DNA of 64,000 bases, taken from sequence record MH791411.1; one strand, 5' to 3'. The stretch's first letter is position 1, and every line of letters begins with the position of its first letter. Positions 1,788 to 63,620 of this stretch are shown here, piece after piece. The DNA is from Escherichia phage Ecwhy_1. Both the position numbers and the translations under genes were made by a program. The notes under the pieces were generated by a model. The model had not been told where the DNA came from. It saw only the letters and a program-made list of their open reading frames with translations, and made no database searches.

Positions 1788-1814
1788 ATTATAGGAAGAT
1801 TTAACTTAAGTCAA
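1788..1814 (-). promoter_or_regulatory. sigma70-like promoter (TTGACT-N15-TATAAT on minus strand)
   Basis: Revcomp of 1788-1814 reads TTGACTtaagttaaatcttccTATAAT about 40 nt upstream of the 1747 start. Confidence 0.4.
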
Positions 1815-1882: not shown

Positions 1883-1893
1883 ATTATATCACA
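1883..1893 (-). promoter_or_regulatory. extended -10 element TGTGATATAAT
   Basis: Revcomp of 1883-1893 is TGTGATATAAT; same 11-mer recurs upstream of clpP at 5409-5419. Confidence 0.3.
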
Positions 1894-2007
1894 CTAATGT
1901 ATAATGTCTATGCTTTTGTCAACAAATAACGTGGTAGTACTGAACTCGTTGTTGGTTCTAAGAGTTTTCCTGAAATTCAAACAAGTTGTGTACTAACAAA
2001 AGAAAAA

Positions 2008-2023
2008 GGAGCCTTATGGCTCC
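2008..2023. terminator. bidirectional intrinsic terminator hairpin
   Basis: GGAGCC-ttat-GGCTCC flanked by A-run (2002-2007) and T-run (2024-2030); immediately after stop of 2029..2295 gene. Confidence 0.55.
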
Positions 2024-2028
2024 TTTTT

Positions 2029-13034: not shown

Positions 13035-13091
13035 AACAACTACTCCATGTCAGTGTTGTAATGAAATTATATCACCGAATCAAGATATGTC

Positions 13092-13397
13092 TCATGAGAT
13101 TCGCATTTCATCCAGATATAAACTACATGCTTCGAAATTGTTGTCAGCACTTAAACCTAAATCAACCATCAGACCACAATGCGTTCCACAGAATTTCTTT
13201 ATGTATAGTTTCTTATTGTTTGTACCTAAGTCGTATACATATTCATTTTCGAAAATAGTTTTTAAATCATTACAAATACTTTTTACTATCTTCATTACAT
13301 CATTATGATACTCATATGGTATTCCATCTAGTTCATCAATGATAATAGCAAAACCATTGTCATAGTACTTTAGTTTATTGAATGTTTGTATATCCAT
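13092..13397 (-). CDS. hypothetical protein
   Basis: 101 aa ORF. Confidence 0.45.
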   Translation of the reverse strand: MDIQTFNKLKYYDNGFAIIIDELDGIPYEYHNDVMKIVKSICNDLKTIFENEYVYDLGTNNKKLYIKKFCGTHCGLMVDLGLSADNNFEACSLYLDEMRIS

Positions 13398-19948: not shown

Positions 19949-19997
19949 TCCTTGTGTTAGTTATTGTTCCTCATCCAATATTATATCACTACTTGAG

Positions 19998-20282
19998 CTA
20001 TTGTCCCGCTTTGTAACAATAAAGATTCTCAAATTTAAAGTTCTCTATATCACATTCCTCACGAACTCGGTTCTTGTTCCAGAACAGAATACGAATCCTT
20101 TCATAATCACGATAAACACTAATAATACTTTTGTGTTTAGATTTGTAGTACTGCTGTATAACCTGAAGAGTTATATCCCTCAACTTGGACTTAATTGGGT
20201 AAGACAAATCATTACTAGTTGTTATGGCATAAACCATCTTCATTGTTTCAGCAACAAGTACTTCATTCGATTTATTTGCCAT
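19998..20282 (-). CDS. hypothetical protein
   Basis: Track ORF (GTG at 20300) trimmed to ATG 20280-20282 (MANKSNEV) with AAGGA RBS. Confidence 0.45.
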   Translation of the reverse strand: MANKSNEVLVAETMKMVYAITTSNDLSYPIKSKLRDITLQVIQQYYKSKHKSIISVYRDYERIRILFWNKNRVREECDIENFKFENLYCYKAGQ

Positions 20283-25415: not shown

Positions 25416-26097
25416 TATTCCTATGGAAACATCAATGACTGTACATGGCGTTGACTACATCAACACCAGTCGAATTATACACGCTTCGCATGTCTAATTC
25501 GACGAAAGTACTATGATTTGTTTTAATTAATATTGACGGGGTTTGCTTGAGCATATTTCATCCCCCCCGCAGGGGAAAGAACAAAAAAAGTTTGACGCTG
25601 GTGGCCTTCACATAGTTCATATCACGAATTCTCTTACGAGGCGAAAGCGGGTTGCTCTGTTTCTCTCTATCGCGGTTCTTGTAGCAACGGTCGTCGGTCT
25701 TAAACATCCCGACACATAATACAAATACCATATGACCAGTACTTGTATTTGATTTCACGAATTTTGGACGCAACTATATTGTATAAATTACGACCGCAAA
25801 TTTCTCATGAAATCTCCCTTAGATAATTGGTAAGGTGCGATCCTTATATGTCTATCGAGGAACTCTCTTTATCCTATTGGAGTTCTTTATACAGCCGCAT
25901 TGCCGTGAGTGGTTCAAACTATGCCATCATCTAACGGGTTTCATTTGCTGTTCGTACTGAAAGGACTACTCATCTACCCTCTACTTTTCGAGTGGATTAG
26001 GCTTTAATCATTTCCATATGGAACCTTTCAGGATTAAAAAAAGGCGACAACATATTCTGCTGTCACCTTACATTATATCATAAACTTATGGTATGTC
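25416..26097. other. ORF-free island, apparently G+C-richer than flanks; candidate structured RNA / regulatory region
   Basis: About 680 bp with no credible ORF on either strand; 9-bp inverted repeat 25469-25477/25495-25503; direct repeat TCACGAATT at 25622 and 25755; runs such as tcccccccgcagggg. Confidence 0.4.
26034..26067 (-). terminator. intrinsic terminator
   Basis: Minus-strand hairpin GGTGACA-n11-TGTCGCC (one G-U) followed by TTTTTTTAA; directly after stop of 26098..26946. Confidence 0.5.
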
Positions 26098-26946
26098 TCA
26101 GTTGTATTCTGTTTTTTCAGTGAAATTAGTTAAGATATCTGCACTTAAGCTTCTCATAACCTCAATCTTACTTGGCATGAACCTGTGCTTGTTTTTTACA
26201 TACAACTCATCATCTTCAATGAAAGATGTGAACATGAATACCATATCTTCACGTGGAATTGAGAGAATATTACAGTTTTCATTTTCAGCAACAGGGGAAT
26301 CATTGTAGTACTTAGAGAATGCAGTACTTTGACGACCGATTATGATAGAATTTCGGATTAGAAAATTACTACAGTACTGAAAATCTTTGTAGTACTTGTC
26401 AAGGATATATGGCATTATCGCTTCTTTCACTTCTTCATATCCATTGGTACTATCAATTTCAGTACAATAATCTTCTCGGTCTTTTTTCCCTCGATGATTA
26501 TCAAACTCGTACTCAAAGAATAAATTTTTATTTAATGAATCATTTGAACCAACTGATCCACTATAGTATGATTTTCTATCATTCATTCGATCATCCGGGC
26601 ATGATGCATACATAGAAATGTCATGTGTTGACGTACCGATATAAATTTTCTTAGTAATGTGATTGTACGCGATGTAATCATAATCTTGTACTCCAGTTAG
26701 CATTAACTGGAACATCAATTCATCAGGAACATCAATTAACGGGTACTCAAACTTCGAATATCTACTACGACAGAAATTCTTTTCAAATGCTCGATATGCG
26801 ATGAAATCTTTTAGGTTTGTAATAGATTCATGCTCATGTGTACTACTGGTGCGTACATTGACATTAGTAGACGAGCAATACCCTTCAGATTCTTCTGCGT
26901 AGTCATAATAACCCTTACTGTAGTCAACGATTAGATAAAGTTTCAT
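26098..26946 (-). CDS. hypothetical protein (282 aa)
   Basis: Long ORF; no motif recognised. Confidence 0.55.
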   Translation of the reverse strand: MKLYLIVDYSKGYYDYAEESEGYCSSTNVNVRTSSTHEHESITNLKDFIAYRAFEKNFCRSRYSKFEYPLIDVPDELMFQLMLTGVQDYDYIAYNHITKKIYIGTSTHDISMYASCPDDRMNDRKSYYSGSVGSNDSLNKNLFFEYEFDNHRGKKDREDYCTEIDSTNGYEEVKEAIMPYILDKYYKDFQYCSNFLIRNSIIIGRQSTAFSKYYNDSPVAENENCNILSIPREDMVFMFTSFIEDDELYVKNKHRFMPSKIEVMRSLSADILTNFTEKTEYN

Positions 26947-26997
26947 ATATCTCCAGACAAAAAAAAGACGAGATATTATATCCCGTCCTTTGGTTTA

Positions 26998-28990: not shown

Positions 28991-29027
28991 TTTCGGACAA
29001 AAAATTAGTCGAGAATAAATCTCGACT
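28991..29027 (-). terminator. intrinsic terminator
   Basis: 8-bp stem AGTCGAGA/TCTCGACT (29007-29027) followed on minus strand by AATTTTTTGT. Confidence 0.45.
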
Positions 29028-35724: not shown

Positions 35725-36295
35725 ATGTATCCTTGATGTTTTTGATTGCCGTGTGTAGCTCTTTTAATGTATCGGATTCACAGTTAATGAACTTACTATA
35801 CATTACCAATTCACCAGTGTCAATAGCTTTTGCAGTTTCATAGCAAAGCATCATGTACTCAAACTCCTTGAAGTTGTCAAGTACTGATCTCTGGAAAATG
35901 TATGCTTCACGAATGTCTTCACTTTGATCTAGTTCTGGTGGAATTTCCAAATATGTATCATTCTCTACGTCATCAAAATTAGATTCAACAATTCGATTAA
36001 TATCTTCGTGTAAAGCATTGACAAATATCATGTTTGGAGTAATGGAACCAATTCGCTCACTATGCCTTGATGTACGGATATACATTGCCATAGTATCCCA
36101 TGAACCTTTTTTTGTCGTTCCATAATCGTAAACTTTATAAGACTCCAGTACTACTGAACCAAAACGATATGGTGATTTGCATTCAACTTTAAGACGATAA
36201 TTTCCAATAGGCTCATGTTCAGTAATGTTGTGCTTTTCAGATAGTTCTGCAATGTCATGCATCAATTTCATAATTTGAATGTGTTCAGCTTGCAT
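35711..36295 (-). CDS. family A paralog
   Basis: 194 aa; E-A-Y-I-F-Q-R-S-V-L-D. Confidence 0.55.
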   Translation of the reverse strand: MQAEHIQIMKLMHDIAELSEKHNITEHEPIGNYRLKVECKSPYRFGSVVLESYKVYDYGTTKKGSWDTMAMYIRTSRHSERIGSITPNMIFVNALHEDINRIVESNFDDVENDTYLEIPPELDQSEDIREAYIFQRSVLDNFKEFEYMMLCYETAKAIDTGELVMYSKFINCESDTLKELHTAIKNIKDTYERL

Positions 36296-36858
36296 TATAA
36301 GTCCTCTAATTTAACAGGTACATGTTCATTGATGAACGTCTTAAGAGCCAGTACTAGATCTTCTAATTCTTCTGTACTGAATTTTAATATAGTTTTAAAG
36401 ATTATCAATTCATTTCTTTCTATAATCTTTGGAATTTCATATGCTAACATAAGATTGCGAACAGTACCAGCGTTGTGTATGAGGTTCGCATTGAATAAAA
36501 GTACATCGTACTCGTCTTTTTTAATTTTATAATTGTACTCTTCAATTACTTCATGTGTGTATGTATTCTTATAAGCAATTTTATTTTTATGAAATTTATA
36601 ACCAACAGTAACACTATCATCATAAAATGTAGAACGATAATCTTGTTTTCTATCGCCGGACGAAATGATGTGTAATGCGGTGTATTTGTCCTCAACATCT
36701 AACTCAATGTTTGCATAACTGTTAACAGTTTCATTCTTTAGGACATTAATGTTATATTTCTCATTAACTTTAATGTACTGGCGTGCACCATTATCATCAA
36801 TGAACTTAAAACAATGCTTTATCAACAATGTGATTTCTTTAATTAATTCAGTGCTCAT
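36295..36858 (-). CDS. hypothetical protein
   Basis: 187 aa ORF; AGGAG RBS; first gene after internal promoter. Confidence 0.5.
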   Translation of the reverse strand: MSTELIKEITLLIKHCFKFIDDNGARQYIKVNEKYNINVLKNETVNSYANIELDVEDKYTALHIISSGDRKQDYRSTFYDDSVTVGYKFHKNKIAYKNTYTHEVIEEYNYKIKKDEYDVLLFNANLIHNAGTVRNLMLAYEIPKIIERNELIIFKTILKFSTEELEDLVLALKTFINEHVPVKLEDL

Positions 36859-36885
36859 ATCTTCTCCTGTACTCTGTTAAAAGCG

Positions 36886-36914
36886 ATTATAACACACCTG
36901 AATGCTCATGTAAA
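36886..36914 (-). promoter_or_regulatory. sigma70-like promoter TTTACA-N17-TATAAT with TG extension
   Basis: Revcomp of 36886-36914 = TTTACAtgagcattcaggtgtgtTATAAT; AGGAG RBS and ATG of 36295..36858 follow. Confidence 0.55.
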
Positions 36915-36920
36915 GCACTA

Positions 36921-36945
36921 AACACAAAAAGACCCATAAGGGTCT
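36921..36945. terminator. intrinsic terminator hairpin (usable on both strands)
   Basis: AGACCC-ataa-GGGTCT with A-run upstream and T-rich run downstream; abuts stop of 36946 gene. Confidence 0.5.
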
Positions 36946-37464
36946 TTATTTTGGTAAAACGCTGTCAATGTACGCTAGAGCCTCATCTCGGAGGTACGTT
37001 CCATCTATTGTTATGTAATAATTCTTAGGGATATCACTCCCAATCTTCTCGTAAATTTTCATACATGATATCACATCTTCATCACAAATGGTACTCAATT
37101 GAAACTGTACTTCATCAGTTAAAGGTACGATATCATGTTTAGATGGGGGGTTGGTATTTTCATTCAAAACAATATCAAACAAATTAGGAGTATTCTTTGA
37201 CGAAATGTAACGATGTTTACTACGAATTACCATTCTCGACAGAGAAATACTGGAACTCCATCTTTGGTCCACATCTTCGTATGTTAACGCAATTAACATT
37301 TCATAATAATCTTGGAATTTCATTGATGCATAATATGTTTTGTCCTCACCGTACATTCCAAATGATTTGAATTCAATGTCACCTACATTGTGTGTATCGC
37401 TATCACTATTCACGAATTTTAAAAGACTGTTGATTAGTCTGATTAGAATATCATCTTTATTCAT
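36946..37464 (-). CDS. family A paralog
   Basis: Track ORF (TTG at 37530) trimmed to ATG 37462-37464; E-V-Q-F-Q-L-S-T-I. Confidence 0.5.
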   Translation of the reverse strand: MNKDDILIRLINSLLKFVNSDSDTHNVGDIEFKSFGMYGEDKTYYASMKFQDYYEMLIALTYEDVDQRWSSSISLSRMVIRSKHRYISSKNTPNLFDIVLNENTNPPSKHDIVPLTDEVQFQLSTICDEDVISCMKIYEKIGSDIPKNYYITIDGTYLRDEALAYIDSVLPK

Positions 37465-40738: not shown

Positions 40739-40797
40739 TGTGATATAACCCTTTACAATTAATATAAAGAGATTATATCACAAAGATTTGGAGGGTG

Positions 40798-41388
40798 TCA
40801 AGAGTTCTCACGAAGTTCTACCATTTCTTTCCATACTAAATGGTAATCTTCTAAGTCCAGATAGAAGTCTTCATTTAAGTGCTCATATAAGTACTTGTAC
40901 ATGAATAGTACACCTAAATTGTATTCAGTATTAAGTAATGATTGTTGGAAGTAGTTTTCTTCATTTAGTTCTATATCCATGAACTCAAATCTACCTAGAC
41001 CTTTTAATGTACGTATCTCAACATGTGAAGTATCTGTTTTACTGAAGCACATGAATCCACCTCTAAATTCGGGATCATATTCACATTCATACTGTCCACT
41101 GTTATTATAGAAATCTCTATTACCATCCTTATCTTTTGGCTTAACAACTGATACGTGAAGGTCGTCATCTTTGTACATTGTACGTTCTGGCGTTTTCACA
41201 CATTTTAACTTATTTTCTTTAATGTACTTGATAATATCAATTATATCTTGTGCAGTACTGATTGCTGCCTCGAACGTATCCAACTTAAGATGATTGTATT
41301 GTGTACCCTTGTTCTTTATTTTATCTAACATACTAACCTCATAATTCATACATCTTTGATTTGAATTGCATTGGTCCACCAACTTCAC
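40798..41388 (-). CDS. family A paralog
   Basis: 196 aa; E-E-N-Y-F-Q-Q-S-L-L. Confidence 0.55.
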   Translation of the reverse strand: MKLVDQCNSNQRCMNYEVSMLDKIKNKGTQYNHLKLDTFEAAISTAQDIIDIIKYIKENKLKCVKTPERTMYKDDDLHVSVVKPKDKDGNRDFYNNSGQYECEYDPEFRGGFMCFSKTDTSHVEIRTLKGLGRFEFMDIELNEENYFQQSLLNTEYNLGVLFMYKYLYEHLNEDFYLDLEDYHLVWKEMVELRENS

Positions 41389-44070: not shown

Positions 44071-44513
44071 AAGGATGCCTCTTCTATAGTAACGAAATCA
44101 ACTAACCTATCAAGTTTTTCAGTGTCTAGATAAAATATATCCAGTACTGACTTCTGATATAGTACACTAAATGTACATAGATTGTCAAGTGTTCCTTCAT
44201 TATAAACAGTACTTCCCTGGAAGTACCCTTCTTCTGTACTCAGAGATAAAATATCAGAAATTTTAAAAGATTCTTCATTCTCATGACGCTCTATCGTAAC
44301 TTCATCATATTTTCTGTTCAATGAAATATAATCGTATGCTAATTCAATAGTACTACAGTTGTTGTTGCTAGTGTCAAATAAAGAATCAATTGTAATCTTC
44401 GTACCATTAGAAACTTCTCTGCGTTCATCATCTACGTATTCAGGATTTTCTTTGAAGAACTTAACAACTTTTAGAATATCATTTGCTTTCTTGATTGCAC
44501 TTTCATAACTCAT
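44067..44513 (-). CDS. family A paralog
   Basis: 148 aa; E-E-G-Y-F-Q-G-S-T-V-Y. Confidence 0.6.
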   Translation of the reverse strand: MSYESAIKKANDILKVVKFFKENPEYVDDERREVSNGTKITIDSLFDTSNNNCSTIELAYDYISLNRKYDEVTIERHENEESFKISDILSLSTEEGYFQGSTVYNEGTLDNLCTFSVLYQKSVLDIFYLDTEKLDRLVDFVTIEEASF

Positions 44514-50347: not shown

Positions 50348-50862
50348 AATCCTATTTCCTTTAAATCTTCCAAAAATGTTTCATAATCACTTAAGGAAAA
50401 AAAGATATCCGTATCGATGTTCGCATCTAATACATTATACAAATTCTGCATCTGTAACACATCAGGAGCATCAATCAATGATTGCTGGAAATATGCAGCT
50501 TCATCTTCTAAAATATCCCTGAATGTTCTCTCTCGTACTCTGTGGTGTACTGAATTGAATATTGATTTCTCATCCTTAAGCATTGGTAGGTATCGAATGT
50601 ACATGTGTTCTCTTAGCTCAGGACTGATGGAACCCCTGAACTGTAACACGTATTCGAAGCACATAGCAACATCCTGAAGGTAATTGGCACTGTAATTATT
50701 GCTGTAAACAATCTTATGACTTCTGAACTCATCATCATTTCTGAACCAATTGTCACCTACTTTGGTGTACTTATGACTAAGCAATCCACCCTCTAACGCT
50801 TTGATGATCTTCAAAATGTTGTGTGCAAATGCATATGATGTATTGTACTTGGCCTGATACAT
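50344..50862 (-). CDS. family A paralog
   Basis: Track ORF trimmed to ATG 50860-50862 (MYQAKYN) with GAGG RBS; E-A-A-Y-F-Q-Q-S-L-I. Confidence 0.5.
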   Translation of the reverse strand: MYQAKYNTSYAFAHNILKIIKALEGGLLSHKYTKVGDNWFRNDDEFRSHKIVYSNNYSANYLQDVAMCFEYVLQFRGSISPELREHMYIRYLPMLKDEKSIFNSVHHRVRERTFRDILEDEAAYFQQSLIDAPDVLQMQNLYNVLDANIDTDIFFSLSDYETFLEDLKEIGL

Positions 50863-50875
50863 GTGTGCCTCAACC

Positions 50876-51070
50876 TTATCTTGTGTTAAAATATTCACTG
50901 AAATGATTATAACACAAAAGCACCACGATGTTAAGCACTCTGTTGTCAAAATCATCTTGTGATGTAGGATGCAATGACGCATTGATGTTAAAATTCACTA
51001 TATCATTGTGGAATTGGTATGTGAACAAATCAAACTTCGTATGCCTTTGTTTGATATCATAGGCGGTCAT
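50876..51070 (-). CDS. hypothetical small protein
   Basis: 64 aa ORF between two family A genes. Confidence 0.3.
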   Translation of the reverse strand: MTAYDIKQRHTKFDLFTYQFHNDIVNFNINASLHPTSQDDFDNRVLNIVVLLCYNHFSEYFNTR

Positions 51071-51680: not shown

Positions 51681-52321
51681 TTTAATTCCCCTGTAATCAC
51701 TGCATTTACTGCACTTGATGCAAATAAACTGATATTTGAACGATACATATCGTACACTGTACTTTCTTTCTTGTGCACAATGAAATCATAAAGATCAACA
51801 AATGCAGGAATAATAATCTTGAATGATTTATTTGGGTACGTCCCAAAATCAACTGTACTCAATTTTGCAACGAGCATAACAACAAAGATTTCTTCTGGAC
51901 TATACACTGTACTGTACTGAAAATAATCCTCTGCACTCATGGCACTCATTGCATTTATATCTTGTGTTTGTAATGTAATATTAAGACAATCAAAAATATA
52001 ATAAAACTCTGATTTGTTTTGTATTTTGTATTTGTCAATTGGGGTATCTCTCATGAACCATAAACGATCTTGTCCATAAAAAGGAATGATTGAATTTGGG
52101 GAAGCCAGAAATACTTCTTCTCTATCAATATCCTTTAACTCAATTTGCATACCGGATGAATTGGCAATAATTAATTCATTAAAAATATAATGAACCTTGT
52201 GTACAATCTCTTGTACTGAATTGAAATCATCTGGTATTTTAAAATTTTCCATAGGTATCTCCTTAAAATGATTACACATTGTACCATGCATTTGTACTCG
52301 TGTCAAACAAAAAAAGCCCAT
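51677..52321 (-). CDS. family A paralog (start uncertain)
   Basis: 214 aa; A-E-D-Y-F-Q-Y-S-T-V-Y. Confidence 0.55.
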   Translation of the reverse strand: MGFFCLTRVQMHGTMCNHFKEIPMENFKIPDDFNSVQEIVHKVHYIFNELIIANSSGMQIELKDIDREEVFLASPNSIIPFYGQDRLWFMRDTPIDKYKIQNKSEFYYIFDCLNITLQTQDINAMSAMSAEDYFQYSTVYSPEEIFVVMLVAKLSTVDFGTYPNKSFKIIIPAFVDLYDFIVHKKESTVYDMYRSNISLFASSAVNAVITGELK

Positions 52322-52324
52322 ATC

Positions 52325-52822
52325 TTACGATACAGGCATGTTTATTTGAATTTCATTGTACAAATCATCAATATATAGACATGAAAACGATAAACTTTCT
52401 TTAACTATATTGTTGTGATAAAGCATTTTAAATGCAATATAGAAAAATAAATCAATATCATCATGTACTAAATTCTGCTGGAACCACCACTCTTCTGTTA
52501 AATCTTGTGCATTAAAATCATCAGGAACTACAATTGACGACATATCAGCATCTTCTTTGTACTCAAACCACATGTCGTCATTTGGATAACGTTCATGCTT
52601 CTCTGGGTAACAATTGCTGGGATTAAATGCTAAAATATAAAATGCCGTCGCAGAATGTTCTTTATTATAAAATGAATTATTCCACACCTGATACCTTTCA
52701 CCAACATCAAACTCTTTTGATACTGATGTTATTGCACATAATGTACGATATATTGTTTCTATTTTGTGAACAAATTTAAAGGCTGCATCTAAACTGAACT
52801 CTAAATCAGACATGCGGTGCAT
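52325..52822 (-). CDS. family A paralog
   Basis: 165 aa; T-E-E-W-W-F-Q-Q-N-L-V. Confidence 0.55.
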   Translation of the reverse strand: MHRMSDLEFSLDAAFKFVHKIETIYRTLCAITSVSKEFDVGERYQVWNNSFYNKEHSATAFYILAFNPSNCYPEKHERYPNDDMWFEYKEDADMSSIVVPDDFNAQDLTEEWWFQQNLVHDDIDLFFYIAFKMLYHNNIVKESLSFSCLYIDDLYNEIQINMPVS

Positions 52823-56909: not shown

Positions 56910-56970
56910 AATTTTCTACCCTAATGATTAACGTACAGGTACTATATCAGTAATGAAAAGTACTGTCAAG

Positions 56971-57866: not shown

Positions 57867-58140
57867 ATTTCTCTTTATTAGCTTGTTTAGATTGTGTGGT
57901 TTTATAGTGAATTAAATCTATTAATGTAATCAAGTACAACGTCAAATAGTACTCTTGTTGATCTGTACCTAATGATACAAAGAACTTGTGCTCATAGATT
58001 AAAACCTGTTTCTCATAACAAGAACACTTAATCCTATGTATAGGTTTCAGTAAATGTGAGTACTTATTAAATCTCATACCCATTTCTATTTCAGATAGTA
58101 CTTTCATATTAAACATGTACTCCATTAGCTGTAGCATCAC
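57856..58140 (-). CDS. family B paralog
   Basis: 94 aa; S-L-G-T-D-Q-Q-E-Y-Y-L. Confidence 0.5.
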   Translation of the reverse strand: MMLQLMEYMFNMKVLSEIEMGMRFNKYSHLLKPIHRIKCSCYEKQVLIYEHKFFVSLGTDQQEYYLTLYLITLIDLIHYKTTQSKQANKEKYEN

Positions 58141-58330
58141 GTAAAGCTCTCAAATACTTCTGTACTGCTTGCTCTTGATGATCTGTACCTAAAAGTATAT
58201 ACATCCATAATTCACTGTAATGTACATCTTGTGTATAAGGGTTGTTGTAACTTTTTGATAATATAGCATCAAATTCAGATGCATGAACCCTTGCGAACTT
58301 AAGCATATCTTGTTGTGTTATGATTCTCAT
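58109..58330 (-). CDS. family B paralog
   Basis: 73 aa; L-G-T-D-H-Q-E-Q-A-V. Confidence 0.55.
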   Translation of the reverse strand: MRIITQQDMLKFARVHASEFDAILSKSYNNPYTQDVHYSELWMYILLGTDHQEQAVQKYLRALRDATANGVHV

Positions 58331-58542
58331 ATCTTTTCCTGTACTATCTGCATAAGAATCTCTATGTGTGAATTAACAGTTCTCTCTTGATGCTGTGTTC
58401 CTAAGAGTGTCAGTACTATCATATCTGAACGCAAAAGATTTTTTTCAAGTTCACTTATATCAGTTCTTGAATCAAGTGCCATATATTTGTGATTATTCTT
58501 CCTGAATAGTGCCAAGTACTCTTGATTTGATATTTCCTTCAT
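58327..58542 (-). CDS. family B paralog
   Basis: 71 aa; L-G-T-Q-H-Q-E-R-T-V. Confidence 0.55.
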   Translation of the reverse strand: MKEISNQEYLALFRKNNHKYMALDSRTDISELEKNLLRSDMIVLTLLGTQHQERTVNSHIEILMQIVQEKI

Positions 58543-58778
58543 AGTTTATCCCTGATGCCATTTAAAAGTGCTCTAATATGCTCCTGTACGAATTTGTACT
58601 GACTGTCTGTTCCTAGAGTGAGTAGTAATCTTAAATCTGAACTTTTGATATGATATTCTAAATCATTATTTGATTCTTGCATCAGTTTCTTAAAGGATGA
58701 GAAGTTTGCAGCCATTAGTTCAATGTATTCTGCTGTTCCTAGGGGTTTGTGTATTGGCTGTTTGTGCTGTCTGTGCAT
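58539..58778 (-). CDS. family B paralog
   Basis: 79 aa; L-G-T-D-S-Q-Y-K-F-V. Confidence 0.55.
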   Translation of the reverse strand: MHRQHKQPIHKPLGTAEYIELMAANFSSFKKLMQESNNDLEYHIKSSDLRLLLTLGTDSQYKFVQEHIRALLNGIRDKL

Positions 58779-58990
58779 TTTAATTTTATTACCCTTTTGA
58801 GTGTATTAATGTAATTATACACATTGGCTTCTTGATAGTTTGTTCCTAGAGTAGCTTGAACGTAGATTTCATTTAACTTAATAATTTTATCAGTATCTGG
58901 AAGTTTTGATGTGTTAATGGCAAATAACTTCGAAAACAGTCCATTTATGATTGTTAGGTATTCTTCGTCGGTAATGATTCGCATTTGCAT
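58739..58990 (-). CDS. family B paralog
   Basis: 83 aa; L-G-T-N-Y-Q-E-A-N-V. Confidence 0.55.
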   Translation of the reverse strand: MQMRIITDEEYLTIINGLFSKLFAINTSKLPDTDKIIKLNEIYVQATLGTNYQEANVYNYINTLKRVIKLKCTDSTNSQYTNP

Positions 58991-59196
58991 TGGATAAACC
59001 TTTTTAGTTCTTTGATGTAATCATTAATATTACATTCTTGATAGTTAGTCCCTAGGGTAGAATTAACATAGATTTCACTCATTAGAATATTTTTTTCTTC
59101 ATCAGGTAAATCTGTGGTCTTTGCTATATACAATTTTAGAATTAAACTACTTAATAGTTCGTGGTATTCACTTGGTGAAAGGATTTTCATTTGCAT
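58954..59196 (-). CDS. family B paralog
   Basis: 80 aa; L-G-T-N-Y-Q-E-C-N-I. Confidence 0.55.
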   Translation of the reverse strand: MQMKILSPSEYHELLSSLILKLYIAKTTDLPDEEKNILMSEIYVNSTLGTNYQECNINDYIKELKRFIQCKCESLPTKNT

Positions 59197-59402
59197 GTTC
59201 TCAGTACAGATTCTTTAAGTTCATCGATGTAGTCCTCAACGAATTGCTCTTGGAAGTTAGTTCCAACATATAAAAGAACTCTTAAATCTGCTCTAAGTAA
59301 CTCTTTTTCATCCTCATCTATATCAGACAATGTTATGTTTAAGAATTTACTTGTATTAAAGATTAACAATTCTGTTTGTTCACTGTGGCTTAAAATTTTC
59401 AT
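59187..59402 (-). CDS. family B paralog
   Basis: 71 aa; V-G-T-N-F-Q-E-Q-F-V. Confidence 0.55.
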   Translation of the reverse strand: MKILSHSEQTELLIFNTSKFLNITLSDIDEDEKELLRADLRVLLYVGTNFQEQFVEDYIDELKESVLRTCK

Positions 59403-59610
59403 AATCTCTTTTTGCTTTCCTCGACAGTAGGTACAAATACGATTCTTCGTATTGTGCTTGGAAGTTTGTGTTTAAGAGTCGAAACAACTTCTGTTCTGCT
59501 AGAACGAGTTGCTTATCTTCATAACAACGGTAGCGTATCAACTTTTTGTATTCGATGTTGATTACATCCATTACTATAAGCCCATGTTCATCATCTGTCA
59601 AGTGCTTCAT
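59380..59610 (-). CDS. family B paralog
   Basis: 76 aa; L-N-T-N-F-Q-A-Q-Y. Confidence 0.5.
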   Translation of the reverse strand: MKHLTDDEHGLIVMDVINIEYKKLIRYRCYEDKQLVLAEQKLFRLLNTNFQAQYEESYLYLLSRKAKRDYENFKPQ

Positions 59611-59848
59611 GCTTTTTTCTTTTCCTGATGTGTTTAGTTAAAAGGTATATTAGTTTTCTGATGTATTCTTCTTGATAGTTTGTTCCTAGGAGTGCCAGAA
59701 GTTTTGCTTCAACTAAAGCTAATTGACGTTCTTCAAATGTGTGTTCCAGTATGTACTTTGGGTTTGATTTTTTAGATATTGCACTATTAGTTTTCATTAC
59801 AATCTTATGATATTCATTAACTGTTAGGATTTTTAAATTCTTGAGCAT
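59591..59848 (-). CDS. family B paralog
   Basis: 85 aa; L-G-T-N-Y-Q-E-E-Y-I. Confidence 0.55.
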   Translation of the reverse strand: MLKNLKILTVNEYHKIVMKTNSAISKKSNPKYILEHTFEERQLALVEAKLLALLGTNYQEEYIRKLIYLLTKHIRKRKKHEALDR

Positions 59849-60074
59849 GTACCTTTTCCTTTATAGAGAATTTAAGATATCGAAGCATACTTTCAATGTA
59901 ATACTCTTGTCTGTCAGTGCCAAGAAAGTACATGAGTTGAATGTATAAAACTTCTGCACTCCTTTCGGCATGTGACTTGTTTGTGTCGTTTGGAAGTTGA
60001 TTTGTAAGTTTTCTGGATTTAATTAGTCGTTCTTTTAACTCATCGTCTGTTAAGTATTTCATTTCATTTTGCAT
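59817..60074 (-). CDS. family B paralog (MQNEM trio)
   Basis: 85 aa; F-L-G-T-D-R-Q-E-Y-Y-I. Confidence 0.55.
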   Translation of the reverse strand: MQNEMKYLTDDELKERLIKSRKLTNQLPNDTNKSHAERSAEVLYIQLMYFLGTDRQEYYIESMLRYLKFSIKEKVHAQEFKNPNS

Positions 60075-60294
60075 TTACTTTTTCCTTAATACTCATTACA
60101 AGATGTTCAATCATATTTTGAACCATAAATTCTTGTTTATCAGTTCCAAGAACGTATGGTAGCTTCTGAAACAATACATTCGCAGACATTTCATATATTG
60201 ATTGATTTGGAACGAACTTAAGAGTAATGTTATTGGCTTTTAACATCTTCTCTTGAAATTCTTCATTCGTTAAGTATATCATTTCACTTTGCAT
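60064..60294 (-). CDS. family B paralog (MQNEM trio)
   Basis: 76 aa; V-L-G-T-D-K-Q-E-F-M-V. Confidence 0.55.
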   Translation of the reverse strand: MQSEMIYLTNEEFQEKMLKANNITLKFVPNQSIYEMSANVLFQKLPYVLGTDKQEFMVQNMIEHLVMSIKEKVNAK

Positions 60295-60520
60295 TTACTT
60301 TTTCCATAATAGTAATTTTGAGATATTTAATTATACGTTCAATGTGATACTCTTGCCTATCAGTTCCAAGAATGTATGGTAATCTTTGGAATAAAACTTC
60401 TGCACTCCTTTCCGCTGGGGTTTGGTTTGGGTTGTGTGGAAGATATTTTGTAAGTTTTTTGGATTTATCTAGTCTTTCTGTTAACTCATCATGTGTTAAG
60501 TATATCATTTCATTTTGCAT
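60284..60520 (-). CDS. family B paralog (MQNEM trio)
   Basis: 78 aa; I-L-G-T-D-R-Q-E-Y-H-I. Confidence 0.55.
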   Translation of the reverse strand: MQNEMIYLTHDELTERLDKSKKLTKYLPHNPNQTPAERSAEVLFQRLPYILGTDRQEYHIERIIKYLKITIMEKVNAK

Positions 60521-60756
60521 TTAATGTTCCTTACGTAAATTGTCTGGATTAAACAATCAATCCAAGTTTGAATATATTGGTTTTGATACTGTGTGCCTAA
60601 GAGACTCTGCATTTTAAACTCTGCTTCAAGTTCATATCTCTTTTCTATAGAAAAGCTCAAATGACCATATTCTTTATCGTATCTTCTCAGTGCTTCCCCA
60701 ATTCTATCAAATCTTTCTGCTAATCTGATGTTATTCACAATATTCATCGCATTCAT
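60505..60756 (-). CDS. family B paralog
   Basis: 83 aa; L-G-T-Q-Y-Q-N-Q-Y-I. Confidence 0.55.
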   Translation of the reverse strand: MNAMNIVNNIRLAERFDRIGEALRRYDKEYGHLSFSIEKRYELEAEFKMQSLLGTQYQNQYIQTWIDCLIQTIYVRNIKCKMK

Positions 60757-61031
60757 CGATCAGTACACCTCAGTGGTTGGGTCATTTGATGAAAGTACAG
60801 CTTACCTCTGATTTCCAGTAGTAACTCAGCAATTAAGCGATTTACTTCTGGCTCTTGATAGTTTGTTCCTAAGAATACACCCATCTTTAACTCACGCATC
60901 ATAATCATTTTCTTACTGTGTTGAATTTCTGGGTTGTGATAGATTGTATTACGTTTGTGCGTAATTTTTGTCATACGCTCGGTATATTCATCTTTACTTA
61001 AATTGATCATTTGCATGTTCATCAACCTCAC
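60753..61031 (-). CDS. family B paralog
   Basis: 92 aa; L-G-T-N-Y-Q-E-P-E-V. Confidence 0.55.
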   Translation of the reverse strand: MRLMNMQMINLSKDEYTERMTKITHKRNTIYHNPEIQHSKKMIMMRELKMGVFLGTNYQEPEVNRLIAELLLEIRGKLYFHQMTQPLRCTDR

Positions 61032-61242
61032 ATTTATTTTCGATACAAATCATGAGTTCTCTAAGATAGTTTTTTACCTTACCTGCCTGATAGTTCGTCC
61101 CCAGGAAGTTGCATAACTCTGCTTCTATCATTTTGATTCTTCTGTTATCAGGTTTCAATTTTTTGTTATTGAAGATTTGAATCCTTATATCCCTTGATGC
61201 ATTTAAACGTTTTTGATATTCATGGAAAGATAAATTAATCAT
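60994..61242 (-). CDS. family B paralog
   Basis: 82 aa; L-G-T-N-Y-Q-A-G-K-V. Confidence 0.55.
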   Translation of the reverse strand: MINLSFHEYQKRLNASRDIRIQIFNNKKLKPDNRRIKMIEAELCNFLGTNYQAGKVKNYLRELMICIENKCEVDEHANDQFK

Positions 61243-61457
61243 TTACTTTGTATCTCTCTCTTGAGGGCATCAATTAACAACAGTACAGCATTCTCTTGAT
61301 AGTTTGTTCCTAAGACTGAAAGCATCTTAATCTCATTTACTACGATCAACTTCTTTGAGCGTTCAATAATGTTACTATTATAAACGGCGTTACGTGCTGG
61401 ATAAGTTTTTGCAAGACGTTCATAATATTCATCTTTACTTAAATTAATCATTTGCAT
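61239..61457 (-). CDS. family B paralog
   Basis: 72 aa; L-G-T-N-Y-Q-E-N-A-V. Confidence 0.55.
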   Translation of the reverse strand: MQMINLSKDEYYERLAKTYPARNAVYNSNIIERSKKLIVVNEIKMLSVLGTNYQENAVLLLIDALKREIQSK

Positions 61458-61666
61458 TTACTTTTGACCTCCTTGACTAATGCATCAACCCACATGTCTA
61501 TATACATTTGTTGATAGTTTGTCCCTATGAGTGCCCCTGCATAGAGTTCAGCTATCAATGCATGTTTTAGGTTGGCAGGGATGCTCTTATCAGATTGAAT
61601 CTTTACTCTTCTGTTGGCACATGTTTTCAGGAGTCTGATGTATTCAAAGCCTTGTAATTTTCTCAT
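61448..61666 (-). CDS. family B paralog
   Basis: 72 aa; I-G-T-N-Y-Q-Q-M-Y-I. Confidence 0.55.
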   Translation of the reverse strand: MRKLQGFEYIRLLKTCANRRVKIQSDKSIPANLKHALIAELYAGALIGTNYQQMYIDMWVDALVKEVKSKCK

Positions 61667-61878
61667 TCTTTTGATATCACCTTGTTACGTAAGGCACTTA
61701 ACAATACGTCAGTGTAGATGTTTTGATAGTTTGTTCCTACGAATACACCCAACTTCATTTCAGCTATTATAACACATTTGTCCTCTTGTGCAATAGACTT
61801 GTCTAAAGAAATACTAACAACTTTCCTTCTTATAGCTTGTAACCTCCAATGATACTGAAACTCATTTAGGGTTATCAT
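61663..61878 (-). CDS. family B paralog
   Basis: 71 aa; V-G-T-N-Y-Q-N-I-Y. Confidence 0.55.
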   Translation of the reverse strand: MITLNEFQYHWRLQAIRRKVVSISLDKSIAQEDKCVIIAEMKLGVFVGTNYQNIYTDVLLSALRNKVISKE

Positions 61879-62113
61879 TCTCTCGCCTCCATATCTCGGT
61901 TCTAATGTGTTGACATTGTGCTTCGATGAACATATCTATTGATTTGGCAATTGCTTTTTTATCAGTGCCTGTCATCAGTACAAGCATCTCGGCCTCACAG
62001 TGAAGTAAACGCATGATATCATAGGGTAATATTCCAGATACCGTGTCATAGTGTTTCTGTGCCAGTGTCTGTAATAGTTTACAATACATTTTGTGATTTA
62101 GTCTTTGTCGCAT
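61862..62113 (-). CDS. family B paralog (degenerate core)
   Basis: 83 aa; M-T-G-T-D-K-K-A-I. Confidence 0.45.
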   Translation of the reverse strand: MRQRLNHKMYCKLLQTLAQKHYDTVSGILPYDIMRLLHCEAEMLVLMTGTDKKAIAKSIDMFIEAQCQHIRTEIWRRENDNPK

Positions 62114-62370
62114 TGTCTATTCCATTCTTTTTTGGCCTTGATGGTTTTATATTGGATTTGGTTTCTTAATGCTGATAAGTATCGTTGAATGAACAGATCT
62201 TGATAGTTTGTTCCAATGAATTTCATAAGATAAAGTTCACCGTTGATAACATCCACTTCAGGTGCACCATATAAGGCATTGTTTTTTCTAAGGGCATGGA
62301 TTAAAGAGAATAGGGCAGTTTGATACTCAACTCCTGATAAAGTCTTCATGTTTTGTGAGCCAATAATCAT
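62098..62370 (-). CDS. family B paralog
   Basis: 90 aa; I-G-T-N-Y-Q-D-L-F-I. Confidence 0.55.
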   Translation of the reverse strand: MIIGSQNMKTLSGVEYQTALFSLIHALRKNNALYGAPEVDVINGELYLMKFIGTNYQDLFIQRYLSALRNQIQYKTIKAKKEWNRQCDKD

Positions 62371-62590
62371 CTAGTTTATCCTGTATAACATTCATTAATT
62401 GTTCGACATATTCTGTGCAAAACTTATCTTGATATTGAGTCCCCATAAAGTACAGCAACCATAGCTCATTAACTTTAGCTCGCATTTGGTTCCATGTAAG
62501 GCTGGGGTCATCGTAGACTATCCTTGCTATAGGGGTTAGTTTACGGACTATAGTTTCATATTCATCTAGTGTTAAGTGTTTCATTTGCAT
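62327..62590 (-). CDS. family B paralog
   Basis: 87 aa; M-G-T-Q-Y-Q-D-K-F. Confidence 0.55.
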   Translation of the reverse strand: MQMKHLTLDEYETIVRKLTPIARIVYDDPSLTWNQMRAKVNELWLLYFMGTQYQDKFCTEYVEQLMNVIQDKLDDYWLTKHEDFIRS

Positions 62591-62799
62591 TTGTCCCTTA
62601 TTAAATCAGTGAGGGCAACTATGTGTGCAACAACATACTCTTCCTGAAAGTTCGTCCCCAGTACAGCCATCATGCGTATATCGGTGGTGTTTATTCTGTG
62701 TTCCCTTACACATAAACCTTCTGTGTGAGGAAGTGTAAAATATTTGTTTATTGCAGCAACGATAATTTTATTCTTCTCGTAATTACTTAAATGTTTCAT
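62581..62799 (-). CDS. family B paralog
   Basis: 72 aa; L-G-T-N-F-Q-E-E-Y-V. Confidence 0.55.
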   Translation of the reverse strand: MKHLSNYEKNKIIVAAINKYFTLPHTEGLCVREHRINTTDIRMMAVLGTNFQEEYVVAHIVALTDLIRDKCK

Positions 62800-63008
62800 A
62801 GTTTGCTCTTAATGTATTTCTGGAGTGCAATTATATACTCATTCAAGAAGTGCTCCTGATAATCTGTGCCGAGGAATGCACCCAATAGTATATCATTTTC
62901 CAATACTAATGCTAAGTTTAAATCATCAGTCTCTTCATATACTATGAGAATTTCAAGTTGTCTGGCAGCGACGCGTTCGGTATATAGATTTGAGTTAATG
63001 CTATTCAT
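62796..63008 (-). CDS. family B paralog (near-identical pair)
   Basis: 70 aa; L-G-T-D-Y-Q-E-H-F-L; C-term Y-I-I-A-L-Q-K-Y-I-K-S-K-L. Confidence 0.55.
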   Translation of the reverse strand: MNSINSNLYTERVAARQLEILIVYEETDDLNLALVLENDILLGAFLGTDYQEHFLNEYIIALQKYIKSKL

Positions 63009-63217
63009 AGTTTACTCTTAATGTAATTCTGGAGTGCAATTAAGTATTCCCCTACATAATACACCTGAAAGTCTGTATCCAAAAATGCACCCATAAGTAA
63101 ATCTTTTTCTAATACCCTTGATAAGTTAAGGTCTGCATTTGAATTGTATATAATTAAGATTTTATTCTGGACAGAAACAAAACGTATCTTATATTCTTCT
63201 GGTGTTAAAAAAATCAT
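63005..63217 (-). CDS. family B paralog (near-identical pair)
   Basis: 70 aa; L-D-T-D-F-Q-V-Y-Y-V; C-term Y-L-I-A-L-Q-N-Y-I-K-S-K-L. Confidence 0.55.
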   Translation of the reverse strand: MIFLTPEEYKIRFVSVQNKILIIYNSNADLNLSRVLEKDLLMGAFLDTDFQVYYVGEYLIALQNYIKSKL

Positions 63218-63423
63218 AGTTTACTCTTAATATCTTCTATTAAAAAATGAATCCAATCATCAACATACTCTTCCTGATGGTTTGTGTTCAGTACAGCCAA
63301 CATGCGGATCTCTGCTCTTGCAACTTGGATTTCAGTTTTAGAAAGGTCTTTGCTGATATCAAACATTAAGTCCATGTATTTCAAGATAAGACCGAATGAT
63401 TGGGTTCGTGTTATAGTTTTCAT
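63214..63423 (-). CDS. family B paralog
   Basis: 69 aa; L-N-T-N-H-Q-E-E-Y-V. Confidence 0.55.
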   Translation of the reverse strand: MKTITRTQSFGLILKYMDLMFDISKDLSKTEIQVARAEIRMLAVLNTNHQEEYVDDWIHFLIEDIKSKL

Positions 63424-63620
63424 TGTTTCCTCGTGGACAATATTTCATTTTTCAATGCATCCATATATTGAATCACCCATCTTCCCTGATAGCTTGTACC
63501 CAATGTAATCAAAAGGTATAACTCAATTCGTTCTAAGTTTGTGTCTGTGTTATAAATCTTTACCATGTTTTTACGTAACAGTTCTTGATAATCTTCTTTA
63601 TTTAAAATACGCATTTTCAT
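63420..63620 (-). CDS. family B paralog
   Basis: 66 aa; L-G-T-S-Y-Q-G-R-W-V. Confidence 0.55.
   Translation of the reverse strand: MKMRILNKEDYQELLRKNMVKIYNTDTNLERIELYLLITLGTSYQGRWVIQYMDALKNEILSTRKQ

What the first reader, a model, noticed from the sequence alone, without database searches (positions are those of the whole stretch)
36886..36945. Canonical terminator-promoter punctuation inside the family A array
Within 60 bp a hairpin terminator (36921-36945) that ends the upstream gene is followed by a near-consensus sigma70 promoter (TTTACA-N17-TATAAT with TG extension, 36886-36914) and an AGGAG RBS for 36295-36858. Similar host-type promoters occur at 1788-1814, 5409-5440 and 63845-63872. 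The arrays are therefore split into separately controllable host-RNA-polymerase units, consistent with early expression.
Basis: seen in the sequence. Interest (0 to 1): 0.35.

Follow-up and report, generated by a model that had tools for sequence, protein, structure and literature searches.

The report
Terminator-promoter junction in jumbo-phage gene array
A short gap between two genes of an E. coli jumbo phage holds a textbook transcription stop signal followed at once by a textbook host-type start signal; related phages keep both, so they are very likely real, but this is ordinary gene punctuation of a kind already known from T4-like phages.

Summary
On the minus strand, the stop codon of gene 36946-37464 runs into an 8-bp hairpin (36947-36928, -11.6 kcal/mol) with a U-tract. 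Then come TTTACA-N17-TATAAT (36914-36886) with a TGTG extended -10, AGGAG, and ATG 36858.

It is not chance. Sites scoring at least 11/12 with TG occur 9 times on the coding strand, 0 on the other, against 0.21 expected. Across 10 Asteriusvirus genomes the stem, U-tract, -35, TG and -10 barely vary (6 of 39 columns). The loop, linker, spacer and leader vary almost everywhere (39 of 41). In phages whose flanking proteins are 26-33% identical or undetectably similar, the module survives and the spacer stays exactly 17 nt.

I found a second such module at 52337-52278, with a compensatory stem change in phage Turkey5. The array also has stand-alone promoters at 40801, 50934 and 56969.

"Host-polymerase, early" is a reasonable inference but untested. 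"Separately controllable" is unsupported, because all promoters belong to one class and only 2 terminators break a 43-gene array. The architecture equals a T4-type PeSL, but the module is single-copy per genome, so it is not a PeSL-type repeat. This is an ordinary new member of a known kind.

The parts
36946..37464 (-). Upstream gene, a family A paralogue of 172 aa. Relatives annotate the ATG at 37464; the longest ORF runs to the TTG at 37530. Its TAA stop is at 36948..36946.
   Evidence: matches phrog_35776, unknown function
36928..36947 (-). Terminator hairpin AAAGACCC-TTAT-GGGTCTTT: 8 bp, 4 of them G-C, overlapping the stop codon
   Evidence: -11.6 kcal/mol, z -4.15. The stem is invariant except for one first-base change in JNE01, and the loop varies, across 10 genomes. 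The G17 record annotates it as an ARNold terminator.
36920..36927 (-). U-rich tail TTGTGTTT. Together with the last Ts of the stem it reads TTTTTGTGTTT.
   Evidence: 2 of 8 columns vary across the genus
36909..36914 (-). -35 hexamer TTTACA. Phage A4 has TTGACA here.
   Evidence: 1 of 6 columns varies
36892..36908 (-). 17-nt spacer. Its 3' end, TGTGT (36896..36892), is the extended -10 (TRTGn).
   Evidence: The spacer sequence varies at 14 of 14 columns outside TGn, but its length is 17 in all 10 genomes, including JNE01 and A4.
36886..36891 (-). -10 hexamer TATAAT. Variants in relatives are TATACT and TAGAAT. T-12, A-11 and T-7 are invariant.
36877..36879 (-). Predicted transcription start, 7-8 nt after the -10, giving a leader of about 20 nt
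   Evidence: inference from sigma70 geometry; not measured
36864..36868 (-). Shine-Dalgarno AGGAG, 5 nt before the ATG
36295..36858 (-). Downstream gene of 187 aa, first gene of the unit started by this promoter. It matches phrog_36809 (unknown function) and the family A HMM does not detect it.
29007..29027 (-). Next strong intergenic terminator downstream; likely end of the unit that starts at 36886-36914 (about 7.9 kb)
   Evidence: -12.0 kcal/mol, z -5.5; conserved in PBECO4 and Turkey5
52278..52337 (-). Second terminator-promoter module. Hairpin GCCTGTATC-GTAA-GATATGGGC (52337..52316) holds the stop codon in its loop. It is followed by T7 (52315..52309), TTGACA (52306..52301), a 17-nt spacer and TACAAT (52283..52278) with TG. 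AAGGAG lies at 52264..52259 and the true ATG at 52252.
   Evidence: -12.6 kcal/mol, z -4.7. Turkey5 has a compensatory A-T to G-C change in the stem. TTGACA is invariant. The three spacers are unrelated in sequence but all 17 nt.
40772..40801 (-). Stand-alone promoter inside the array: TTGACA-18-TATAAT with TGTGA, 33 nt before ATG 40738, with no terminator
   Evidence: conserved in PBECO4 and, at element level, in Turkey5
50906..50934 (-). Stand-alone promoter TTAACA-17-TATAAT with TGTGT, 43 nt before the likely true start ATG 50862. The ORF call to 50982 is an over-extension.
   Evidence: the family alignment begins at MYQAKY
56941..56969 (-). Promoter TTGACA-17-TATAGT with TG, at the upstream end of the array unit that ends at 52337
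   Evidence: Identical in PBECO4. In Turkey5 the hexamers are kept and the spacer has diverged.

Best explanation
The 87-bp gap at 36859-36945 is a composite regulatory junction in the presumed early region of an Asteriusvirus (PBECO4/121Q-like) jumbo coliphage.

Transcripts coming from upstream start at the promoters at 52306, 50934 and 40801. They meet an intrinsic, Rho-independent terminator whose hairpin begins inside the stop codon of gene 36946-37464, and part or most of them end in the U-tract around 36921-36927.

Fourteen bases further on, a near-consensus sigma70-type promoter re-initiates transcription at about 36878. Its elements are TTTACA, a 17-nt spacer, a TGTG extended -10 and TATAAT. 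It most likely uses unmodified host E-sigma70 straight after DNA entry. The resulting mRNA has a short leader with AGGAG, and it covers gene 36295-36858 and about 14 further genes down to the terminator at 29027.

The junction therefore resets transcript level between two long operons of a hyper-variable paralogue array.

Shown: the sequence elements, their statistical excess, their strand and position bias, and their selective conservation. Inferred: that termination and initiation actually occur, that the host sigma is used, and that timing is early.
For: (1) Exact elements and geometry. The hairpin folds at -11.6 kcal/mol, z -4.15.

(2) Stringent promoter sites are about 40-fold over-represented and strand-specific: 9 on the minus strand, 0 on the plus strand, 0.21 expected. 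Eight of the nine lie in true intergenic sequence upstream of start codons. For eight of ten curated promoters the -10 lies 25-34 nt before the start codon.

(3) In a 10-genome alignment the functional columns (stem, tail, -35, TGn, -10) vary at 6 of 39. The loop, linker, spacer and leader vary at 39 of 41. Fisher P = 6e-14. The invariant -10 positions are T-12, A-11 and T-7, which by established sigma70 knowledge are the bases it reads most stringently.

(4) Against Turkey5/JNE01, 13.4 kb of the array (31.9-45.3 kb) cannot be aligned, except for one HSP of 88.6% at exactly 36886..36953 plus a 110-nt one. The flanking proteins there are 33% identical or undetectable.

(5) In phage A4, whose flanks are 26-27% identical, the stem is identical, the -35 is TTGACA, the spacer sequence is unrelated but 17 nt long, TG is kept and the -10 is TAGAAT.

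(6) A second module at 52337-52278 shows a compensatory stem substitution and a length-conserved, sequence-randomised spacer.

(7) No T4-type late motif occurs in the window. Relatives depend on host RNAP or have sigma70-like promoters predicted in equivalent arrays (PMC7318152; PMC5259590).
Against: There are no transcript 5' or 3' ends for any Asteriusvirus, so function is inferred only.

The hairpin of module 1 shows no covariation. Its stem is simply invariant, which says nothing about structure as opposed to sequence.

The U-tract is interrupted (UUUUUGUGUUU), so termination may be partial.

These phages encode their own sigma70-family sigma factor (fEgEco12 Gp519, PMC13070987; CBB_513). 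That factor could read similar hexamers.

Two Salmonella-phage records (SD-15_S21, SD-2_S15) lack the promoter and RBS but keep the hairpin. Either the promoter is dispensable there or those assemblies are faulty.
Confidence: 0.75

Rival explanations
1. The elements are as described, but the promoter is read by the phage-encoded sigma70-family sigma factor as a delayed-early or middle class, not by host sigma70. The unit is then not immediate-early.
For: The genus encodes an RpoD-like sigma with regions 2-4. The window's promoters share a motif tighter than sigma70 strictly needs, TGTG[A/T]TATAAT. TGTGATATAAT occurs 4 times and all 4 are intergenic.
Against: TRTGnTATAAT is also the E. coli extended -10 consensus (my own knowledge). 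The -35 toggles between TTTACA and TTGACA, both good sigma70 -35 hexamers. In CBB a divergent -35 (TGAAACG) marks the second promoter class. That motif is absent from intergenic DNA here.
Confidence: 0.12
2. Besides regulating transcription, the module acts as a PeSL-like recombination linker. It is a conserved patch of homology at which array genes are swapped between co-infecting phages, which would explain an island of identity between unrelated-looking flanks.
For: The architecture (stop codon, stem-loop, Pe, SD, ATG) and the TTTACW-N17-TAYWAT promoter match T4/PST PeSLs (PMC4122927). It sits in a hyper-variable array of unknown-function genes. It is an island of 88.6% identity inside 13 kb of unalignable sequence. 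The stem sequence is invariant without covariation, even in A4. Identity between the window and PBECO4 is mosaic, from 65% to 99%.
Against: The module is single-copy in the window and in every genome. It occurs nowhere else in IMG/VR. Modules 1 and 2 share only consensus elements. The flanking proteins are distant homologues of equal length, which fits in-place divergence. Mosaic boundaries are everywhere rather than concentrated at the modules. The module's 88.6% identity is only modestly above the 75-82% of conserved neighbouring genes.
Confidence: 0.12
3. The hairpin mainly protects the 3' end of a processed upstream mRNA, or is an RNase target, rather than stopping RNA polymerase. Transcription reads through and the promoter merely adds to it.
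For: The U-tract is interrupted by G residues. Most array promoters (40801, 50934, 56969) have no terminator in front of them.
Against: An 8-bp stem with a GC-rich core, a 4-nt loop and five Us right after the stem is canonical for intrinsic terminators. The tail is as conserved as the stem. ARNold calls it a terminator in G17.
Confidence: 0.08
4. This is a chance match in AT-rich DNA.
For: Loose sigma70 matches are as common as in shuffled sequence (83 against 93).
Against: Stringent matches are 9 against 0.21 expected, strand-specific and intergenic. Conservation is element-specific, P = 6e-14.
Confidence: 0.01

Closest known systems
PeSL (promoter-early stem-loop) cassettes of T4-type phages (Arbiol et al. 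2010, PMC2839356; Comeau et al. 2014, PMC4122927)
   Same: The order of parts is the same: upstream stop codon, stem-loop terminator, sigma70-like early promoter, SD, ATG, all within an intergenic gap under 100 bp. The promoter form TTTACA-N17-TATAAT equals the T4/PST PeSL consensus TTTACW-N17-TAYWAT. The stem is of the A3-G/C-core-T3 type, like phage nt-1. Both sit in plastic regions full of unknown-function genes.
   Different: PeSLs number about 50 per genome and share sequence over about 100 bp, which is what makes them recombination substrates. Here the module is single-copy per genome, only 2 composite modules occur in 64 kb, and these share no sequence beyond consensus elements. No mini-circle or indel association is shown. 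The host phage is an Asteriusvirus jumbo phage, not a T4-like phage of the group (Tquatrovirinae) in which PeSLs were described.
Predicted RpoD-like promoters in the presumed early region of RaK2-like jumbo phage CBB (Buttimer et al. 2017, PMC5259590) and sigma70-like promoters and terminators of PA5oct (Lood et al. 2020, PMC7318152)
   Same: Sigma70-consensus promoters are concentrated in long one-directional arrays of short hypothetical genes in related jumbo phages. PA5oct depends on host RNAP.
   Different: Those are motif predictions, RNA-seq-guided for PA5oct, in other genera. This particular junction, its conservation pattern and the second module have not been described. The G17 GenBank record annotates only the hairpin.
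E. coli extended -10 (TGn) sigma70 promoters and intrinsic terminators
   Same: All defining sequence features are present.
   Different: None in sequence. Only the genomic setting differs (a phage paralogue array).

Membership tests
Intrinsic (Rho-independent) terminator | Stable GC-containing stem-loop directly followed by a U-rich tract | tested here: met
   8-bp stem with 4 G-C pairs and a 4-nt loop, -11.6 kcal/mol, z -4.15, followed by UUGUGUUU
Intrinsic (Rho-independent) terminator | Located at the 3' end of a gene, on the coding strand | tested here: met
   The stem begins inside the TAA stop codon of gene 36946-37464
Intrinsic (Rho-independent) terminator | Structure maintained in evolution (covariation) | tested here: inconclusive
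   In module 1 the stem is invariant and the loop varies, with no compensatory pairs. The sister module at 52337 has one compensatory A-T to G-C change in Turkey5.
Intrinsic (Rho-independent) terminator | RNA 3' ends form in the U-tract | not testable with these tools
   No transcript data are available
Sigma70 extended -10 promoter | -35 and -10 hexamers close to TTGACA and TATAAT, spaced 17 +/- 1 | tested here: met
   TTTACA-17-TATAAT, 11 of 12 matches
Sigma70 extended -10 promoter | TG at -15/-14 | tested here: met
   TGTGT precedes TATAAT. TGn is invariant in 10 genomes.
Sigma70 extended -10 promoter | Selective constraint on hexamers and spacer length, but not on spacer sequence | tested here: met
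   6 of 39 functional columns vary against 39 of 41 non-functional ones. The spacer is 17 nt in all genomes, including A4 and JNE01 where its sequence differs.
Sigma70 extended -10 promoter | Correct orientation and distance to a gene start with an RBS | tested here: met
   The -10 ends 27 nt before ATG 36858, with AGGAG between them. The same 25-34 nt distance holds at 8 of 10 curated window promoters.
Sigma70 extended -10 promoter | Initiation by E-sigma70 at about +1 | not testable with these tools
   Needs TSS mapping or in-vitro transcription
PeSL cassette (T4-type) | Composite stem-loop plus sigma70-like early promoter plus SD between a stop codon and the next ATG | tested here: met
PeSL cassette (T4-type) | Many dispersed copies per genome with shared sequence over about 100 bp | tested here: not met
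   One copy in the window at up to 3 mismatches. One place per record in all Asteriusvirus genomes holding the module. One IMG/VR hit, which is 121Q itself. The second module shares no sequence with the first.
PeSL cassette (T4-type) | Preferential location in hyperplastic regions, next to ORFans | tested here: met
   The module lies inside a 43-member array of unknown-function paralogues. Only 12% of the array aligns to Turkey5, against 61% for neighbouring DNA.
PeSL cassette (T4-type) | Coincidence with indel or replacement breakpoints between close relatives | tested here: inconclusive
   Identity to PBECO4 is mosaic everywhere and is not focused on the modules. A promoter-only deletion occurs in two Salmonella-phage records.
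PeSL cassette (T4-type) | Formation of mini-circles by recombination between cassettes | not testable with these tools
   Needs inverse PCR on infected cells

The most novel reading that the evidence does not exclude
The two terminator-promoter modules and the stand-alone promoters are the only sequences held constant in an otherwise hyper-diverging 28-kb paralogue array. They may serve as homology anchors for cassette exchange between co-infecting Asteriusvirus genomes. That would be a low-copy, jumbo-phage version of PeSL-mediated modular shuffling, and it would explain how the array diversifies so fast without losing expression.
Probability: 0.12. Interest if true: 0.45.

Novelty: new member of a known kind. 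Interest (0 to 1): 0.2.

Why it matters
The result gives a concrete, testable operon map for the presumed early region of PBECO4/121Q-like jumbo coliphages, a group with no transcript data:
- P56969 to T52337
- P52306, P50934 and P40801 to T36947
- P36914 to T29027

It corrects two over-extended gene starts. It also shows that regulatory signals are islands of conservation in an extremely fast-evolving 43-gene paralogue array. That helps anyone annotating these genomes, building reporters, or asking what the array does. Conceptually it adds little, because terminator-promoter junctions driven by host sigma70 are standard in large virulent phages.

Tried and rejected
(1) The loose sigma70 scan is uninformative: 83 found against 93 expected. 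I replaced it with stringent criteria and shuffles.

(2) The PeSL-type dispersed repeat was rejected. No second copy occurs in the window, in any genome or in IMG/VR.

(3) Rfam finds nothing at gathering threshold across the whole window.

(4) The terminator-like hit at 44227..44208 was rejected. It falls on the DNA repeat that encodes the family's FQ motif.

(5) The candidate promoter at 51025..50997 (TTCACA-17-TATAGT) was down-weighted because PBECO4 does not conserve it. The real promoter of that gap is more likely 50934..50906.

(6) The recombination-junction test, an identity profile against PBECO4, was inconclusive.

(7) The literature holds no transcriptomics for Asteriusvirus. The fEgEco12 and phAPEC6 papers do not mention promoters or terminators.

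(8) Side trip on family A. There are no Pfam hits, and PHROGs lists only families of unknown function. The AF2 model (pLDDT 73, pTM 0.70) has no PDB fold match, and its BFVD matches with E below 0.1 are uncharacterised proteins, the named ones from PBECO4/121Q- and RaK2-like jumbo phages. The TEV-site-like motif EExYFQxS lies in a confidently modelled helix, so I did not pursue a protease-site reading.

Full report
**What the window is.** The 64-kb window is 99% identical to Escherichia phages fEgEco12 and vB_Ec-M-J. It is 83-88% identical to PBECO4, 121Q, UB, G17 and other members of the genus Asteriusvirus, which are 350-385-kb RaK2-like jumbo myophages. About 95% of it is coding, and 147 of 153 gene-sized ORFs lie on the minus strand. 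All coordinates below are therefore read on the minus strand, with transcription running towards lower numbers.

**Checking the observation.** The sequence reads ...CCA AAA TAA AGACCC TTAT GGGTCTTT TTGTGTTT AGTGC TTTACA (17 nt) TATAAT ...AGGAG AAGAT ATG.
- The stop codon is at 36948..36946.
- The hairpin AAAGACCC/GGGTCTTT spans 36947..36928.
- The U-rich tail runs to 36920.
- The -35 is at 36914..36909 and the -10 at 36891..36886.
- The spacer ends in TGTGT, so TG sits at -15/-14 and the longer TRTGn form of the extended -10 is present.
- AGGAG lies at 36868..36864 and the ATG at 36858.

The consensus scanner reports the same promoter (11 of 12 matches, spacer 17, TG yes) and the same terminator (8 pairs, 4 G-C). 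The hairpin folds at -11.6 kcal/mol against -3.35 +/- 1.99 for shuffles (z -4.15, 0 of 200 as good).

**Is it more than chance?** Loose sigma70 matches are not enriched (83 against 93 +/- 10), so the test needs stringency.
- TGnTATAAT occurs 17 times on the minus strand (5.1 +/- 2.0 in dinucleotide shuffles) and twice on the plus strand. Six of the 17 fall in the 4.7% of the window that is noncoding.
- Full sites scoring at least 11/12 with TG occur 9 times on the minus strand and never on the plus strand, against 0.21 +/- 0.46 expected (Poisson P about 2e-12).
- After correcting two over-extended ORF starts, eight of these nine lie in intergenic DNA just upstream of a start codon.
- For eight of ten curated promoters the -10 ends 25-34 nt before the start codon.
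- The promoters share a recognisable house style, xxGACA or TTTACA, N16-18, TGTG[A/T]TATAAT.

**Comparative evidence.** I collected the junction from ten distinct genomes and aligned them (A1).
- Stem, tail, -35, TGn and -10 together vary at 6 of 39 columns.
- Loop, linker, spacer and leader vary at 39 of 41 columns (Fisher P = 6e-14).
- In the -10, the invariant positions are T-12, A-11 and T-7. The variants are TATACT (G17, ph0011, UE-S1) and TAGAAT (A4). From established knowledge of sigma70, those invariant bases are the ones it reads most stringently.
- The -35 is TTTACA everywhere except A4, which has TTGACA.

The most telling cases are the distant lineages. Against Turkey5/JNE01, the window between 31.9 and 45.3 kb cannot be aligned by blastn, apart from one 110-nt patch and one HSP of 88.6% that spans exactly 36886..36953, from hairpin to the last base of the -10. 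The flanking proteins there are 33% identical or undetectably similar. In A4 the flanking proteins are 26-27% identical. Even so, the stem is identical, TG is kept, and a completely different spacer is still exactly 17 nt. Selection on a sigma70-type promoter and an intrinsic terminator predicts exactly this pattern.

**A second module and the operon map.** Scanning the rest of the window revealed a second junction that the longest-ORF call had hidden.
- The hairpin GCCTGTATC-GTAA-GATATGGGC (52337..52316; -12.6 kcal/mol, z -4.7) carries the upstream stop codon in its loop.
- It is followed by T7, then TTGACA-17-TACAAT with TG (52306..52278), AAGGAG, and the true ATG at 52252.
- In Turkey5 the stem carries a compensatory A-T to G-C change.
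- TTGACA is invariant in the window, PBECO4 and Turkey5.
- The three spacers are unrelated in sequence but all 17 nt long.

Stand-alone promoters with no terminator lie at 56969, 50934 and 40801. Those at 56969 and 40801 are kept at element level in PBECO4 and Turkey5. The one at 50934 was not checked in relatives. The next strong intergenic terminator below 36947 is at 29027. The array therefore reads as three units:
- P56969 to T52337
- P52306 (reinforced by P50934 and P40801) to T36947
- P36914 to T29027

**What is being expressed.** A local HMM iteration finds 43 paralogues between 57866 and 29655. They are extremely diverged, with 13% mean column identity. Only F and Q are invariant, and S is 90% conserved, within the motif [ED][ED]x[YFL]FQxS[TL]. 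Pfam finds nothing, and PHROGs lists only unknown-function families. An AlphaFold model (pLDDT 73, pTM 0.70) has no PDB match and its BFVD matches with E below 0.1 are uncharacterised proteins, the named ones from PBECO4/121Q- and RaK2-like jumbo phages.

**Interpretation.** The best-supported mechanism is an intrinsic terminator that ends or attenuates the upstream unit. Fourteen bases later, a strong extended -10 promoter restarts transcription at about 36878.

Use of host sigma70 and early timing are inferences, with three points in favour:
- These are the only recognisable promoters in the window. The T4-type late box TATAAATA is absent, and the CBB-type middle -35 TGAAACG occurs only inside genes.
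- CBB's RpoD-like promoter predictions cluster in the equivalent array, which its authors suspect is early (PMC5259590).
- PA5oct is rifampicin-sensitive and uses sigma70-like promoters (PMC7318152).

Against certainty, the genus encodes its own sigma70-family sigma factor, and no Asteriusvirus transcriptome was found in the library. "Separately controllable" goes beyond the evidence. All promoters are of one class, so they should fire together, and only two terminators break the array.

**Comparison with known systems.** The closest described entity is the PeSL of T4-type phages: a stop codon, stem-loop terminator, sigma70-like early promoter, SD and ATG, sitting in hyperplastic regions upstream of ORFans. 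The T4/PST promoter consensus is TTTACW-N17-TAYWAT (PMC4122927; PMC2839356). Architecture, promoter form and genomic setting all match.

The property that makes PeSLs mobile is not met. PeSLs have about 50 copies per genome that share sequence over about 100 bp. Here the module is single-copy in the window, in every Asteriusvirus record holding it and in IMG/VR. The two modules share only consensus elements. A test for recombination breakpoints at the modules was inconclusive, because identity to PBECO4 is mosaic (65-99%) everywhere. So the junction works like a PeSL as a regulatory element, but I do not file it as a PeSL-type shuffling cassette.

**Verdict.** This is ordinary, well-conserved transcriptional punctuation and a new member of a known kind. 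Interest is low, at 0.2. The residual novel reading, that these conserved junctions are homology anchors for array shuffling, has a probability of about 0.12.

Noticed in passing
window 29655-57866 (- strand): An array of 43 paralogous genes of 100-215 aa. Mean column identity is 13%, and the only near-invariant feature is the motif [ED][ED]x[YFL]FQxS[TL] about two-thirds of the way along each protein. It resembles a TEV-type site (ExxYxQ|S). In an AF2 model (pLDDT 73) it lies in a confident helix. There are no Pfam or PDB matches, and related folds (BFVD hits with E below 0.1) are uncharacterised proteins, the named ones from PBECO4/121Q- and RaK2-like jumbo phages.
   Followed up: partly
window 25416-26099 (- strand): Candidate non-coding RNA. 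The promoter GAGACA-16-TGaTATAAT (26099..26072) runs straight into a 12-bp hairpin with U7 (-17.6 kcal/mol, z -6.6). About 600 nt follow with no credible ORF. GC is 0.38-0.455 against about 0.33 nearby, and the fold z-score is -2.65. The stretch is 97-99% identical to PBECO4, where the flanks are about 80-89%. PBECO4 and Turkey5 also leave it unannotated. Rfam has no hit even at E up to 1.
   Followed up: partly
window 52278-52337 and 50862-50982 (- strand): Two longest-ORF starts are over-extensions that hide regulatory DNA. The true starts are ATG 52252 (not 52321) and probably ATG 50862 (not 50982). The first hides a full terminator-promoter module and the second a promoter (TTAACA-17-TGtTATAAT).
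   Followed up: yes
window 58000-64000 (- strand): A second family of very small tandem genes about 70 aa long, spaced about 210-230 nt apart, sharing an L-G-T-N-Y-Q-E motif (DNA repeats D7, D9 and D10). AT skew shifts to about -0.2 in this stretch.
   Followed up: no
window 26963-26991 (- strand): A strong terminator hairpin of 13 pairs plus T8 whose stem and loop carry GATATAAT, the house -10 sequence. It is conserved in PBECO4.
   Followed up: no
window 1748-2028 (- strand): After the terminator at 2028..2003 (-16.3 kcal/mol) there are two tandem promoters: TAGACA-16-TGaTATAAT (1910..1883) and TTGACT-15-TATAAT (1814..1788). This 280-bp gap cannot be aligned to PBECO4, which has a plus-strand 'structural protein' gene in the corresponding region.
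   Followed up: partly
L007 (Salmonella phage SD-15_S21) 600-640; also SD-2_S15: In these Salmonella-host Asteriusvirus records the hairpin and U-tract are intact, but the promoter, leader and SD are deleted, so GTGTTT abuts the ATG of the next gene. These genomes are 310-326 kb with many fragmented CDSs, so this could be a real deletion or an assembly artefact.
   Followed up: partly
whole window vs PBECO4 (L014, L016): Nucleotide identity is mosaic at sub-kb scale, from 65% to 99%. This indicates pervasive recombination or very uneven rates. The array region is only 12% alignable to Turkey5, against 61% for 15-30 kb.
   Followed up: partly
window 13066-13093 and 19980-20007 (- strand): Promoter-like sites of the house type (GAGACA or GGGACA, N16, TGaTATAAT) lie inside the 3' ends of genes, each with its -10 ending 31 nt before the next start codon. 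PBECO4, and Turkey5 for the second site, conserve the extended -10 while the spacer varies.
   Followed up: partly
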